In this document: one piece after another, positions 16,419 to 48,371 of the stretch
Position numbering within the stretch: position 1 is the first letter of the stretch
Layout of the letters: every line of letters begins with the position of its first letter
DNA from: a virus
Direction: 5' to 3' (one strand)
Virus record (IMG/VR): IMGVR_UViG_3300010400_000006
Coordinates: 3,493-67,492 of that record
DNA: 64,000 nucleotides
Program-made: the position numbers and the translations under genes
Notes under the pieces: generated by a model
The model's database searches: none
The model's input: only the letters and a program-made list of their open reading frames with translations
Told to the model about the DNA's origin: nothing

Positions 16419-16742
16419 CTACAGCGGCGTGAGCCGGTAGACCGTTCCTTCCATGGACTTGGCGATGGGGAAGCCGTCGTCCGTCCTGCCGATGTAGACG
16501 TACAGCTTCTCCTGTACCCCCTCGGACCCCTCAATGCCTCCAGAGAGAATGTAGAACCTGCGGCGATTTGCCGACTTCTCGGAGAGCACGTGCTCCGGGA
16601 ACTTCCGCATGTAGTTCTTGAGCGAGCCGGTGACCTGGGTCGCGTCGAGTCCGATCGACTCGGCTATCTGGCTGCTACTCAGCCGTTGTGGTGCGAACCG
16701 CTCCAGATGAGCGATGATCGGGCCAATCACATCGGATGGCAT
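16419..16742 (-). CDS. winged-helix DNA-binding protein
   Basis: LSSSQIAESIGLDATQVTGSLKNY; RBS AGGAG. Confidence 0.65.
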   Translation of the reverse strand: MPSDVIGPIIAHLERFAPQRLSSSQIAESIGLDATQVTGSLKNYMRKFPEHVLSEKSANRRRFYILSGGIEGSEGVQEKLYVYIGRTDDGFPIAKSMEGTVYRLTPL

Positions 16743-16841
16743 TTCTTCTCCTTTCCTGGGAGCTAGGCGCGCTCGACCCGCCTGGTTCGACCCTGACGTG
16801 CAAGGATTAGTTGCGTTCAGTCCCGACGAGCCGAGCGCTTG

Positions 16842-16958
16842 TGCCCTGGAGCGGAATCGAACCGCCGTCCCCGAGTGCTCAGAGGGTTGCCCACCGCAGT
16901 ACGATCCTGCCGTCGCCAGTTCCCTTAACACGGTACTCTGCCGTTGAGCTACCAAGGC
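16842..16958 (-). ncRNA. tRNA-like RNA with an expanded anticodon arm
   Basis: acceptor GCCTTGG/CCAGGGC, U8A9, D arm GCTC-AACGGCA-GAGT, T arm GGCGG-TTCGATT-CCGCT; ~60 nt between D and T arms. Confidence 0.75.
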
Positions 16959-16983
16959 TCACCGCGCCGAGGCGCGGCTTCGA

Positions 16984-17106
16984 TCAGAAGGCGTTCTGGA
17001 ACGCCATGATGATGTTGTTTGCGAACTCGATGGCACTCGAGAGTGCGCCAGAGACGATCAGGAAGCCGAGGCCGATCAGTGCCAGGCCAGGAATGATGAA
17101 TCTCAC
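16984..17106 (-). CDS. 40-aa membrane microprotein
   Basis: GTGA overlap; VRFIIPGLALIGLGFLIVSGALSS... Confidence 0.55.
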   Translation of the reverse strand: MRFIIPGLALIGLGFLIVSGALSSAIEFANNIIMAFQNAF

Positions 17107-17360
17107 GGGTACTGGTCACCCACCTTGTACTTCGCAGCCGTCTCGGCAGAGACGCAGTTGTTGGCGATCTTGCCGTCCTTCTTCTGGACGCTGATCGACC
17201 AGTCGCCGGTGTCGCACTTCGTGGTGCCGCGCGTGGCCTCGGTGCCGTAGATGTTCAGCACCGTACCTGGTGTCTTGCCGTCGCACCCCGCCAGCATAGC
17301 CGTCAGGATGACAACCGGAAGCACCCACCTGGTGAGCTTGGCGTCCTTGAAACTGGTCAT
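17103..17360 (-). CDS. lipoprotein
   Basis: signal peptide with LAGC lipobox. Confidence 0.75.
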   Translation of the reverse strand: MTSFKDAKLTRWVLPVVILTAMLAGCDGKTPGTVLNIYGTEATRGTTKCDTGDWSISVQKKDGKIANNCVSAETAAKYKVGDQYP

Positions 17361-17367
17361 GCTCAAC

Positions 17368-17532
17368 TCAGTTGCCCCGTTCGTTTTCGCGGTCGTCGAT
17401 GACGATGAAGTTGTCCGCTCCACGCGGGGGCGGGGGCTGCTCGTTCTGGGTGTTGATCCTGCCAGCAGCTTCGCCCTTGGCGAGGGCTTCCCGGTTGGCA
17501 CCCTGGATTCCACGCTCCCATGGCATGGGCAT
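17368..17532 (-). CDS. 54-aa hypothetical protein
   Basis: hand-translated; RBS AAGGAGG; fills the gap. Confidence 0.5.
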   Translation of the reverse strand: MPMPWERGIQGANREALAKGEAAGRINTQNEQPPPPRGADNFIVIDDRENERGN

Positions 17533-46805: not shown

Positions 46806-48371
46806 TTATTCGGCCTGGTTGTCGGGATTGGATCCTGAGCCAGCGTTGTTCTCGGCGGCGGCACGCGTACCGTCCGGATCCAAGAGTACCTCTTGGGCCT
46901 TCGAGGCTGCCTCTAGCAGCTTGTCCTTGGCGCCGGGCGGATATTCGTAGCCTAGGTTGGCAACGGCGTCGAAGGCCATCTCGGGCGTGATCAGTGCAAC
47001 TGATCCAGGGCCCGCCGGGGTCACCAGCAGGATGATCTCGTTGATCTTGGCTTCCCTGTTGACCGGCTTCGGGTCACCTACGCTCACCGTGGCGCGTGCG
47101 GCTGTGTTGTACTCCTCGAAGGCGGGGAACCAGTACACCACGATGTCGTATAGCATCTGGTTCAGCACGCCCAGCAGGATCCGCTCTTTCTCGCGGTTCT
47201 CCGCCAGGAGCGGGGCCATCTTCAGCTCGAGCGAAATGCCCGACTCGGCCAACGCCACATCCACGATGCCGGTCGCGATGTCCGGCGTTCCACTGCCTTG
47301 CTGCAGCTCGGTCATCATGGACTTGATGTGGTCCTGCATCGGCGCCACACTCGACACACCGTTCAGCCGGCCGATGGTGTTGCCGTCCGGGACCTCCAGG
47401 ATGACTCCTGGCGAGATCTCGAGCGCGGTCTCGTTGCCGGCCGCGTCTGTGGGCGGACCTGCGTTGGTCCAGTACACCCCGAGCCCCTGCATGACCAGCG
47501 TGATGTCCTCATCGGACAGACTCTGGTTCATCGCAGCAACCAACGACTCGAAGCCCTTCAGCTCCGATACGCCGTACGCGAATCCACTCATCCGCAGGTT
47601 CGGAATCGGGTACACCGGCAGGGCGTGGATGCCCTCCAGCACCTTCTGCGGGATCTCCACCAGTTCCGCGTGCCGATAAGGCTTGAGCTCCTTGGCATCC
47701 AGCACTCGGTCGTCCCAGGCGTCCAGTTGCCAGTAGGTCAGTTCAGTGGTGATTTCCTGCAGACCATCCTCGCCGATGTCGCCCTTGCGGTACGTCTGGC
47801 GCTTGATGACCTGCTTGCCCTTTTTGTCGGCCGGGTCCTTGATCAGCTCGGCAATGTGACAACCCAGGATCTTGTCTGGGTCATTCTCGTCAGTGATGGC
47901 GAAGTAGTTCGCCGGGTCCACCTCGATGATCGACAGCCGGTGCTCGGCAGGCTTGTCGTCATCCGCCAGGAGGTGCCAGACCTGGTCACCCTTCACCATC
48001 CCAAAGCGCTTCTGGTTGTCGAACTTGGTGTACACCAGCTCGCGCTTGAACAGGTCACCCAGTCGACGCTGGAGCTCTGCCTGTTCCCCGCCGGAGCCGA
48101 GCTTCGGGTCTACCAGGAAGTCGAAGTCCACTGCAAGAAATCGGGACTTGGCGTTCACGATCTTCCGCACAGAGGGGATCATGATCTCTGTGGGGTCCTC
48201 GCCGCGCTTCACCAGGGTGAAGGTGCCTGGCTCGTTCCAGTACATCCGCTCGTACAGATCGTACGCGCGCAGTCGAGCCTGGTCCTCCTTCTGCACCACA
48301 TGCGCAGGTACCGACCCCTGCAGGTACTTGGTGGTGGACGACCATGGAGTGAGTGGTTCCGGGCTTGTCAC
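46806..48371 (-). CDS. portal protein
   Basis: 521 aa after TerL; G.SEL, ESGISLELKMAPL. Confidence 0.88.
   Translation of the reverse strand: MTSPEPLTPWSSTTKYLQGSVPAHVVQKEDQARLRAYDLYERMYWNEPGTFTLVKRGEDPTEIMIPSVRKIVNAKSRFLAVDFDFLVDPKLGSGGEQAELQRRLGDLFKRELVYTKFDNQKRFGMVKGDQVWHLLADDDKPAEHRLSIIEVDPANYFAITDENDPDKILGCHIAELIKDPADKKGKQVIKRQTYRKGDIGEDGLQEITTELTYWQLDAWDDRVLDAKELKPYRHAELVEIPQKVLEGIHALPVYPIPNLRMSGFAYGVSELKGFESLVAAMNQSLSDEDITLVMQGLGVYWTNAGPPTDAAGNETALEISPGVILEVPDGNTIGRLNGVSSVAPMQDHIKSMMTELQQGSGTPDIATGIVDVALAESGISLELKMAPLLAENREKERILLGVLNQMLYDIVVYWFPAFEEYNTAARATVSVGDPKPVNREAKINEIILLVTPAGPGSVALITPEMAFDAVANLGYEYPPGAKDKLLEAASKAQEVLLDPDGTRAAAENNAGSGSNPDNQAE

What the first reader, a model, noticed from the sequence alone, without database searches (positions are those of the whole stretch)
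16842..16958. tRNA-shaped RNA whose anticodon arm is replaced by a ~60-nt branched domain
Seen: canonical acceptor, D and T arms. The anticodon stem extends (GTGTTAAG/CTGAGCAC) into a junction with CTG-GCGA-CGG and GG-GCAA-CC GNRA hairpins and CAG-GATCGTA-CTG; no canonical anticodon loop and no encoded CCA. Too short for tmRNA or a group I intron. Inference: a tRNA mimic (nuclease/toxin decoy, processing tag, or scaffold displaying a functional RNA domain).
Basis: partly seen in the sequence, partly recalled or inferred. Interest (0 to 1): 0.75.

Follow-up and report, generated by a model that had tools for sequence, protein, structure and literature searches.

The report
Phage tRNA-shaped gene, oversized anticodon arm
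An uncultured soil phage of actinobacteria carries one gene for an RNA with a textbook tRNA outline but about 50 extra bases where the codon-reading loop should be; it probably cannot decode, and it joins a little-studied group of oversized tRNA-like phage RNAs of unknown function.

Summary
On the minus strand (16958 to 16842) lies a 117-nt tRNA-shaped gene. Searched narrowly, Rfam's tRNA model scores 44.1 bits (cut-off 29) over the full model, with a 51-nt insert inside the anticodon loop. ARAGORN finds it only when introns are allowed, as the sole default-threshold hit in the window.

With the tRNA frame fixed, the middle folds into one long imperfect hairpin (-46.4 against -31 to -33 kcal/mol), and neither fold beats shuffled sequence (z about -1).

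I found no homologue in any collection, so conservation and covariation of the insert remain untested.

The phage encodes no RtcB, EndA, RNA ligase or CCA-adding enzyme. The element sits between two hairpins inside a same-strand gene string.

Best reading (0.4): a non-decoding tRNA-like RNA cut from the transcript by host tRNA-processing enzymes. Rivals are a dead tRNA gene, a protein-spliced tRNA-Leu and a defence decoy.

This scan noted similar oversized tRNA-shaped phage RNAs earlier on other DNA. Published precedents are phage T5 RNA1/RNA2 and the 'enigmatic' Lak phage tRNA introns.

The parts
16842..16958 (-). 117-nt tRNA-shaped RNA gene (whole element)
   Evidence: RF00005 44.1 bits, model 1-71. 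It is the only ARAGORN -i hit at the default threshold.
16952..16958 (-). acceptor stem, 5' strand (GCCUUGG)
   Evidence: pairs with 16843-16849 in 7 of 7 pairs including one U.G
16935..16949 (-). D arm (GCUC-AACGGCA-GAGU)
   Evidence: aligned to model positions 10-25; GG present in the loop
16929..16933 (-). anticodon stem, 5' strand (CCGUG)
   Evidence: Rfam alignment pairs it with CUCGG at 16871-16875, with one U.U
16876..16928 (-). 53 nt between the anticodon-stem strands. It starts UUAAGG (5' half of an anticodon loop) and ends in A. It is predicted to extend the arm into a long imperfect hairpin capped by GAUCGUA.
   Evidence: Frame-constrained MFE -46.4 kcal/mol, pair probabilities 0.6-1.0. 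No Rfam family matches it. No other copy in the window.
16871..16875 (-). anticodon stem, 3' strand (CUCGG)
16867..16870 (-). 4-nt variable loop (GGAC)
   Evidence: alignment
16850..16866 (-). T arm (GGCGG-UUCGAUU-CCGCU)
   Evidence: Exact T-loop motif; alignment.
16842..16849 (-). acceptor stem 3' strand (CCAGGGC) plus discriminator A; next bases are CAA, so no CCA
16962..16977 (-). G+C-rich hairpin. It begins 6 nt after the stop codon of the upstream 40-aa membrane-peptide ORF and ends 3 nt before the tRNA-like 5' end.
   Evidence: fold of 16959-16990: -15 kcal/mol, z -2.45, 3 of 200 shuffles as good
16769..16838 (-). long hairpin (about 14-bp closing stem) starting 3 nt after the discriminator and ending just before the ribosome-binding site of the next gene
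   Evidence: fold of 16750-16841: -35.5 kcal/mol, z -1.59, 18 of 200 shuffles as good; weak on its own
16984..17106 (-). upstream ORF, 40-aa hydrophobic peptide (preceded by a lipoprotein-like ORF at 17103-17513)
   Evidence: Translations. High third-position G+C. No Pfam or PHROG hit.
16419..16742 (-). downstream ORF, 107 aa from the ATG after GGAAAGGAG; no family hit
   Evidence: translation

Best explanation
The element is a phage gene for a tRNA-shaped RNA that does not decode. It keeps what host tRNA-processing enzymes recognise: the acceptor stem, the D-loop/T-loop elbow and the T arm. The anticodon loop is replaced by, or extended into, a hairpin of about 50 nt.

It is read through as part of the minus-strand gene string. 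I infer that host RNase P cuts at its 5' end and a 3' tRNA-processing nuclease cuts at its 3' end. That would leave the upstream mRNA ending in a hairpin, the downstream mRNA starting with a hairpin, and a free, compact tRNA-like small RNA.

Shown: the tRNA frame, the oversized middle, the same-strand intergenic position and the flanking hairpins. Inferred: transcription, cleavage by RNase P and a 3' nuclease, stability, and any further role of the released RNA.
For: Frame: RF00005 scores 44.1 bits against a cut-off of 29 over the whole model, and U8, A14, G18 G19, A21 and the GGUUCGAUUCC T-loop are all in place.

No 7-nt anticodon loop: 53 nt lie between the stem strands.

No splicing or repair enzymes in a record rated 100% complete: 0 matches each for RtcB, tRNA_int_endo and RNA_ligase PF09414.

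Position: same strand as nearly all of the 94 frames picked, between a stop codon and the next ribosome-binding site, flanked by hairpins.

Parallels in other actinophages:
- Gordonia phage VanLee has 13 of 13 unannotated mini tRNA-like units (acceptor plus D-like loop plus T arm, 44-48 nt in most). All lie in gaps between same-strand genes. All have nearly the same acceptor (GCCCYG/CRGGGC, with A then C in 11 of 13). By my reading's trailing sequences, 9 of 13 are followed by a hairpin. The reversed-motif control gave 0.
- Similar units occur in Mycobacterium phage LittleCherry and in IMG/VR locus L149.

Oversized tRNA-shaped genes are common in phage contigs. One contig, L095, carries three, with 38, 59 and 75 nt in the loop position.

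Precedent: T5 RNA1 and RNA2 are annotated 'tRNA-like stable RNA with unknown functions'.
Against: - No homologue of this element was found, so there is no conservation or covariation evidence that any part is under selection.
- The fold is no more stable than shuffles. The downstream hairpin is weak (z -1.59).
- This phage has one such element, not an array. Its three closest named relatives by terminase (Lambovirus-type Gordonia phages, about 60% identity) have 0 T-loop motifs, so the element is not needed by that lineage.
- The retained UUAAGG...A loop halves are what a recently disrupted or intron-bearing tRNA would also show.
- The base before the predicted RNase P site is A and there is no CCA. 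Neither is ideal for bacterial RNase P (recalled knowledge).
- No expression data exist.
Confidence: 0.4

Rival explanations
1. A dead tRNA gene. A former class-I phage tRNA was inactivated by a 46-51-nt insertion in its anticodon loop and has not yet decayed or been deleted. It has no function.
For: - Single copy with no detectable relative in any collection searched.
- The nearest named phages have no tRNA-like motif.
- The insert folds no better than shuffled sequence.
- Both halves of the old anticodon loop are still recognisable.
- There are three G.U pairs, a U.U in the anticodon stem, and an A15/C48 pair instead of a standard Levitt pair (read).
Against: - Every arm and every elbow nucleotide is intact, and the score is 15 bits above the Rfam cut-off.
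- Phage genomes are compact and shed useless DNA.
- The insert has no second copy in the window and no terminal duplication, so it is not an obvious mobile element.
- Oversized tRNA-shaped genes recur in many phages, several per genome, which argues that such genes are kept.
Confidence: 0.25
2. An intron-containing tRNA. The insert is removed at the 37/38 position, or as ARAGORN draws it, by host or unknown proteins, and the halves are joined. The result is a leucine-reading tRNA with anticodon AAG, or UAA in ARAGORN's parse.
For: - The loop halves fit the canonical intron position: Y32 U33 NNN R37 | insert | A38. By my rough estimate this 5' signature arises by chance in about 5%.
- ARAGORN -i calls it tRNA-Leu(taa) with a 25-nt intron.
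- Discriminator A and a GCC start are leucine-like (recalled identity rules).
- CTC, CTT and CTA make up 533 of 17,555 codons.
- Other phage tRNA genes of the same frame carry inserts that leave a good anticodon loop. Examples are L155 and L032 and L035 with GUG.
- 'Enigmatic' introns in phage tRNAs are in print (PMC6784885, passages read).
Against: - No splicing endonuclease, RtcB or RNA ligase in the phage, and none is known for bacteria.
- In the canonical register the bulge-helix-bulge is poor: 3 of 4 central pairs and no inner helix, by my reading against the rule quoted in PMC4090602.
- Cutting at the bulges of the predicted fold would leave a 12-nt loop.
- At 51 nt it is far too small to self-splice.
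- A34 would need deamination.
- The body is class I with a 4-nt variable loop. It resembles Thr-type phage tRNAs: 5 of 12 loci sharing its 5' half are tRNA-Thr.
- TTA is used 3 times in 17,555 codons, so a UAA anticodon has little to read.
- ARAGORN's parse lacks nucleotide 26 and scores -27.9 kcal/mol.
Confidence: 0.15
3. A decoy or sponge. The released tRNA-like RNA binds a host tRNA-targeting defence nuclease, a tRNA-modifying enzyme or a synthetase through its intact top half. The altered anticodon arm makes it uncleavable or inert.
For: - The intact top half with an altered anticodon region is what such a decoy would need.
- Phage tRNAs that counter tRNA-cutting defences are in print (PMC11464382 and PMC11555353, search listing and abstract starts only).
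- The gene lies in a region of small genes of unknown function.
Against: - The published cases use decoding tRNAs with small loop changes, not anticodon-less shells.
- The host and its defences are unknown.
- No linked anti-defence gene was recognised.
- No conservation data exist.
Confidence: 0.1

Closest known systems
Phage T5 RNA1 and RNA2 (NC_005859 30501-30644 and 32959-33083), annotated 'tRNA-like stable RNA with unknown functions'
   Same: Phage-encoded RNAs of 125-144 nt with tRNA-like ends (acceptor pairing and a T arm) and a long non-tRNA middle. Function unknown.
   Different: - The T5 RNAs lie inside a tRNA gene cluster; this phage has no other tRNA.
- T5 RNA1 has a leucine-type D arm, whereas this one has a class-I D arm.
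- No sequence similarity.
- RF00005 does not hit T5 RNA1 or RNA2 at E <= 0.01 but hits this element at 44 bits, so this one is much closer to a real tRNA.
'Enigmatic' introns in Lak megaphage tRNAs (Devoto et al. 2019, PMC6784885)
   Same: Phage tRNA genes made oversized by short inserts in the anticodon region, with no Rfam class and no known removal mechanism (passages read).
   Different: - The Lak cases leave an assignable anticodon and are conserved between genomes, and one insert is itself tRNA-shaped.
- Here the product would be an odd class-I tRNA with a Leu anticodon, and no relative is known.
- Their Supplementary Table 6 could not be seen.
tRNA-like processing signals in mRNAs: plant mitochondrial t-elements (PMC1920247; search listing and abstract start only) and the tRNA punctuation of animal mitochondrial transcripts (recalled)
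   Same: A tRNA-like fold between coding regions on the coding strand, proposed to be cut by RNase P and RNase Z to make mRNA ends. This is the mechanism I propose here.
   Different: Those are organellar and experimentally mapped. Nothing is mapped here, and I know of no printed description for phages.
Protein-spliced tRNA introns of archaea and eukaryotes (review PMC4090602)
   Same: Insert at the 37/38 position of the anticodon loop, pairing with loop nucleotides to lengthen the anticodon arm.
   Different: No proper bulge-helix-bulge in the register that would restore a 7-nt loop. No EndA, RtcB or ligase in the phage. The host is bacterial by phage kinship.
tmRNA and Y-RNA-like (YrlA) tRNA mimics
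   Same: Bacterial or phage RNAs that keep a tRNA-like top half and replace the anticodon region.
   Different: - ARAGORN finds no tmRNA.
- Rfam tmRNA models score 7.5-11 bits.
- No G3.U70, and no YrlA hit.
- In tmRNA the D stem is missing, whereas here it is intact.

Membership tests
tRNA (Rfam RF00005) | Cloverleaf frame scoring above the curated cut-off | tested here: met
   44.1 bits against 29, model 1-71, E 9.3e-9 in a 141-nt search. Missed by the whole-window runs, presumably by the speed filters.
tRNA (Rfam RF00005) | 7-nt anticodon loop with U33 and purine 37 closing a 5-bp stem | tested here: not met
   53 nt between the stem strands. The stem has 4 of 5 pairs. ARAGORN without introns finds nothing.
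tRNA (Rfam RF00005) | 3' CCA (encoded or added) and aminoacylation | not testable with these tools
   No encoded CCA. No phage CCA-adding enzyme. Charging needs an assay.
Protein-spliced (BHB) tRNA intron | Two 3-nt bulges separated by a 4-bp helix, placed so that cutting restores a 7-nt loop | tested here: not met
   In the canonical register 3 of 4 central pairs form and there is no inner helix. The bulges of the predicted fold would leave a 12-nt loop. Rule taken from PMC4090602.
Protein-spliced (BHB) tRNA intron | Splicing endonuclease and RNA ligase available | tested here: not met
   0 matches in the complete phage record for PF01974, PF01139 and PF09414, with positive controls. The host is unknown.
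Group I intron in a tRNA anticodon loop | Catalytic core of roughly 200 nt or more matching Rfam's group I model | tested here: not met
   The insert is 46-53 nt. No such Rfam hit.
tmRNA | tRNA-like domain plus tag reading frame; detected by ARAGORN or Rfam | tested here: not met
   ARAGORN finds 0 tmRNA. beta_tmRNA 11 bits against 84, and tmRNA_permuted 7.5 against 47.
Phage tRNA-like stable RNAs (T5 RNA1/RNA2 type) | tRNA-like ends with a long non-tRNA middle | tested here: met
Phage tRNA-like stable RNAs (T5 RNA1/RNA2 type) | Sequence or model-level kinship to the T5 RNAs; location in a tRNA cluster | tested here: not met
   No blastn match. No other tRNA in the window. The T5 RNAs are not hit by RF00005.
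Phage tRNA-like stable RNAs (T5 RNA1/RNA2 type) | Accumulates as a stable RNA in infected cells | not testable with these tools
   Needs RNA from an infection.
tRNA-like mRNA processing elements (t-element type) | Lies between coding regions on the coding strand | tested here: met
tRNA-like mRNA processing elements (t-element type) | Cut by RNase P and RNase Z, giving mRNA ends at its borders | not testable with these tools
   Needs end mapping or an in-vitro cleavage assay.

The most novel reading that the evidence does not exclude
The element belongs to a broad, essentially undescribed class of phage RNAs in which a constant tRNA top half serves as a processing and stability handle for an exchangeable middle domain. 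In actinophages this handle, in full-size or mini form, is also used repeatedly to punctuate polycistronic transcripts. That would be a bacterial-virus counterpart of mitochondrial tRNA punctuation.
Probability: 0.2. Interest if true: 0.75.

Novelty: new variant of a known kind. Interest (0 to 1): 0.42.

Why it matters
If the RNA is made and processed as proposed, phages of high-G+C bacteria would be borrowing the host's tRNA-maturation enzymes to cut and stabilise their own transcripts, or to launch small non-decoding RNAs. Standard annotation misses this layer of phage gene expression entirely: default ARAGORN and whole-genome Rfam runs both missed this gene.

It also adds an actinophage, class-I-frame example to the oversized tRNA-shaped phage RNAs. 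No function has been found for those since the T5 and T4 'stable RNAs' were described. If it is instead a spliced tRNA, it would point to protein-dependent tRNA splicing in a bacterial system, which is not known.

As it stands the case rests on one sequence without relatives, so its value is mainly as a lead.

Tried and rejected
Searches for relatives, all blank for this element:
- blastn of 401 nt and of the 117 nt against 50,697 phage records. The only matches were 24-25-nt T-arm/acceptor similarities.
- A 28-nt insert pattern in IMG/VR.
- D-arm/T-loop gap patterns in IMG/VR and in JGI metagenomes. The two metagenome hits, L163 and L164, belong to other insert families.
- The 5' 23-mer in IMG/VR (12 loci, ordinary tRNAs, mostly Thr) and in 185,579 genomes (9 hits, all archaeal MAG records, none actinobacterial).
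- The neighbour protein (DUF2786) in IMG/VR as a single sequence (none), in IMG/VR as an alignment (two 39%-identity loci, no full-size element), and in genomes (none).
- Syntenic regions of phages Wollypog, Hawkeye and P3.1, which have no tRNA-like motif.

Sequencing runs: 4 runs listed and no RNA holder listed. Of those laid, only the probable source run covers the element, so there is no variant or expression information.

Other analyses:
- The insert has no second copy and no convincing antisense target in the window. It has no match among the other fetched loci beyond 10-13-nt chance hits.
- tRNA-Leu(UAA) reading: ARAGORN's parse is rejected as primary. It lacks nucleotide 26, has a 26-nt largely unpaired variable region, scores -27.9 kcal/mol, and TTA is 3 of 17,555 codons.
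- tmRNA, Y-RNA, 5S and hammerhead readings of the element are rejected on Rfam scores.
- attP remnant is rejected. There is no tyrosine integrase and the tRNA frame is complete.
- I did not build a covariance model, because no second sequence exists for this element.
- Literature searches found no paper describing tRNA-like intergenic units in actinophages. That holds only for those four searches of the held library.
- Supplementary files (for example Devoto Table S6) are closed and may list comparable genes.

Full report
What is there. The window is nearly all of a 67,492-bp virus record with direct terminal repeats, rated 100% complete. Its terminase is about 60% identical to Gordonia phages of the Lambovirus type. 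Other proteins match Arthrobacter, Mycobacterium, Microbacterium and Nocardia phages, so it is an actinobacteriophage. Runs holding it are soil and rhizosphere metagenomes. G+C is about 62%, and nearly all frames with coding-type third-position G+C lie on the minus strand.

The finding lies on that strand, 16958 to 16842. It has:
- a 7-bp acceptor stem;
- U8 A9;
- a 4-bp D stem with loop AACGGCA;
- A26;
- stem strands CCGUG and CUCGG separated by 53 nt;
- a 4-nt variable loop GGAC;
- a 5-bp T stem with loop UUCGAUU;
- discriminator A, followed by CAA.

Is it more than chance? Searched in a 141-nt slice, Rfam's tRNA model RF00005 aligns end to end (positions 1-71) at 44.1 bits, against a cut-off of 29, E 9.3e-9. 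It places a 51-nt insert in the anticodon loop. The whole-window Rfam run and an 801-nt run missed it, presumably through the speed filters. Default ARAGORN also missed it. ARAGORN with introns allowed reports exactly one gene in 64 kb on both strands, this one. Lowering its threshold gives 49 calls, plainly noise. Four exact copies of the T-loop motif lie on the minus strand. The other three (24371, 30155, 46464) fall inside long ORFs. The tRNA frame is therefore real.

The middle. With the three tRNA arms fixed, however, ViennaRNA prefers one long imperfect hairpin:
- the anticodon stem continues through GUGUU/GAGCAC and AGGG/CCCU;
- then comes a run of pairs interrupted by three G-G mismatches;
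- the 7-nt loop GAUCGUA caps it;
- the energy is -46.4 kcal/mol, with pair probabilities of 0.6-1.0.

Neither the whole RNA (z -1.07) nor the middle alone (z about -1) is more stable than shuffles, so the fold gives no evidence of selection. The middle matches no Rfam family (best 12.2 bits to 5S rRNA, E 4.2). It has no second copy or convincing antisense partner in the window.

The 53 nt begin with UUAAGG and end with A. This is the 5' half of a normal anticodon loop (Y32 U33 NNN R37) plus a position-38 A, so the extra 46 nt sit at the classical 37/38 intron position.

Relatives. I found none. The following were all blank for this element:
- blastn against 50,697 phage records;
- exact and degenerate patterns in IMG/VR;
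- patterns in JGI metagenomes;
- a pattern scan of one genome per species;
- protein-guided searches with the neighbouring DUF2786 gene.

Proteins 91% and 66% identical to that neighbour exist only in Logan assemblies. Of the runs laid, only the probable source run covers the element. The three Lambovirus-type records have no T-loop motif at all. The exact 5' 23-mer occurs only in nine archaeal MAG records, so the frame is not a fresh copy of a host tRNA in the species held. Among IMG/VR tRNAs sharing a degenerate version of that 5' half, 5 of 12 are tRNA-Thr. The body is therefore an ordinary class-I type, not leucine type.

Context in other phages. Three observations bear on the reading.
- Oversized tRNA-shaped genes are common in phage contigs. 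RF00005 scores many above its cut-off with inserts in the same place. One G+C-rich contig, L095, has three within 2.7 kb, with 38, 59 and 75 nt in the loop position. In a crude parse of 99 sequences (98 plus this one), 38 have at least 4 of 5 anticodon-stem pairs in the standard register. Of those 38, 5 keep a 5' loop half (including this one and one false case, L050), 10 have a whole loop at the 3' end of the insert, and 23 have neither. Several insert families with their own conserved motifs recur.
- Actinophages carry unannotated mini tRNA-like units made of an acceptor, a D-like loop and a T arm, with no anticodon arm. Gordonia phage VanLee has 15 T-loop motifs on one strand, against 0 for the reversed control. 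Thirteen of these lie between 71.5 and 82 kb, and all 13 fall in gaps between same-strand genes. Their acceptor is nearly the one seen here. By my reading's trailing sequences, 9 of 13 are followed by a hairpin and a shared motif before the next gene. Similar units occur in Mycobacterium phage LittleCherry and in L149, a distant relative by the DUF2786 gene.
- Phage T5 RNA1 and RNA2 are annotated 'tRNA-like stable RNA with unknown functions'. Their sequences show tRNA-like ends and long middles, although RF00005 does not reach them at E <= 0.01. Earlier notes of this scan pointed me to T5 and to Devoto et al. 2019. In that paper I read the passages on 'enigmatic' introns in Lak phage tRNAs.

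Local context. The element starts 3 nt after a G+C-rich hairpin (z -2.45). That hairpin follows the stop codon of a 40-aa hydrophobic ORF, itself preceded by a lipoprotein-like ORF. Three nt after the discriminator a long hairpin begins (z -1.59, weak). It ends at the ribosome-binding site of a 107-aa ORF, followed by the DUF2786 gene. No sigma-70-type promoter or U-tailed terminator was found on the minus strand nearby. The phage has no match to RtcB, tRNA splicing endonuclease, RNA ligase PF09414, tyrosine integrase or CCA-adding enzyme, each search with positive controls.

How it most likely works. I commit, at 0.4, to a non-decoding tRNA-like RNA. The gene string is transcribed through the element. 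Host RNase P recognises the acceptor/T-arm helix and the elbow and cuts before G at 16958. A 3' tRNA nuclease cuts after 16842, and CCA may then be added. The products would be an upstream mRNA ending in a hairpin, a downstream mRNA starting with one, and a compact 117-nt RNA whose long arm cannot enter the ribosomal decoding site as a tRNA does. The frame, the position and the hairpins are shown; every enzymatic step is inferred. Whether the released RNA has a job of its own (decoy, sponge, scaffold) is open.

Rivals.
- A dead tRNA gene (0.25) explains the lack of relatives, the unremarkable fold energy and the surviving loop halves. It sits badly with the perfectly kept arms and with the abundance of such genes in other phages.
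- A spliced tRNA-Leu (0.15) is suggested by the 37/38 position and by ARAGORN. But there is no enzyme, no proper bulge-helix-bulge in the register that restores a loop (rule from PMC4090602), and a class-I body with an A34 leucine anticodon. There is almost no TTA to read (3 of 17,555 codons), although CTC, CTT and CTA are used 533 times.
- A defence decoy (0.1) is possible but has no specific support.

Novelty and verdict. The kind is known only thinly in print: T5 and T4 stable RNAs (T4 recalled, not checked here) and the Lak introns. This scan has noted it repeatedly on other DNA. This is an actinophage example with a class-I frame and a rod-like insert, so I call it a new variant of a known kind. 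Without a single relative or any RNA data, interest is moderate (0.42). The boldest reading still open is a general 'tRNA handle' system that phages use to process transcripts and to launch cargo RNAs, at about 0.2.

Noticed in passing
L030 (Gordonia phage VanLee NC_073474.1, 71500-82000), minus strand: Thirteen unannotated mini tRNA-like units (acceptor GCCCYG/CRGGGC, a short D-like loop with GG, a T arm, then A followed by C in 11 of 13). Most are 44-48 nt. Each lies in a gap between small same-strand genes. By my reading's trailing sequences, 9 of 13 are followed by a hairpin and the shared motif CACGGCACCCAA. It looks like a repeated transcript-processing module.
   Followed up: partly
L002 about 385-428 (Mycobacterium phage LittleCherry NC_022086.1 near 49,930); L149 about 1905-1965 (IMG/VR contig): Single unannotated acceptor-plus-T-arm mini tRNA-like units in intergenic DNA of two other actinophages. 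LittleCherry has a further T-loop motif at 47,076 that I did not inspect.
   Followed up: no
Rfam Hammerhead_II scores 16.9 bits against a cut-off of 37, E 0.41 in a 201-nt search. CGAAAC, GUC and CUGAGGA are all aligned. Suggestive but below threshold. If real, it would be a second RNA-processing element in the same gene string.
   Followed up: partly
L031-L148 (IMG/VR contigs): The oversized tRNA-shaped genes fall into recurring insert families with their own motifs: a hairpin then ACAGCAA; GTTCCTA; GGTTAYC just before an anticodon hairpin; GCCAGTTAAGCC. Some inserts contain a T-arm-like hairpin (L032, L035). Several ordinary tRNAs are followed directly by a mini T-arm unit (L050, L064, L099, L106).
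   Followed up: partly
L095 4478-4597, 4695-4833, 6136-6239 (IMG/VR contig, 53 kb, G+C about 60%): Three oversized tRNA-shaped genes (59, 75 and 38 nt in the loop position) plus one near-normal tRNA within 2.7 kb, all above the RF00005 cut-off. For the first two I could not restore a U33 loop by any single excision.
   Followed up: partly
L094 1803-2092, minus strand (IMG/VR contig): A permuted tmRNA (RF04321, 66.6 bits against a cut-off of 47) encoded on a phage contig next to tRNA genes.
   Followed up: no
window 17103-17513 and 16984-17106, minus strand: A lipoprotein-like ORF (signal peptide ending LAGC) and a 40-aa hydrophobic ORF directly upstream of the element. This is a pair typical of membrane-acting or exclusion-type phage genes. 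No family hit.
   Followed up: no
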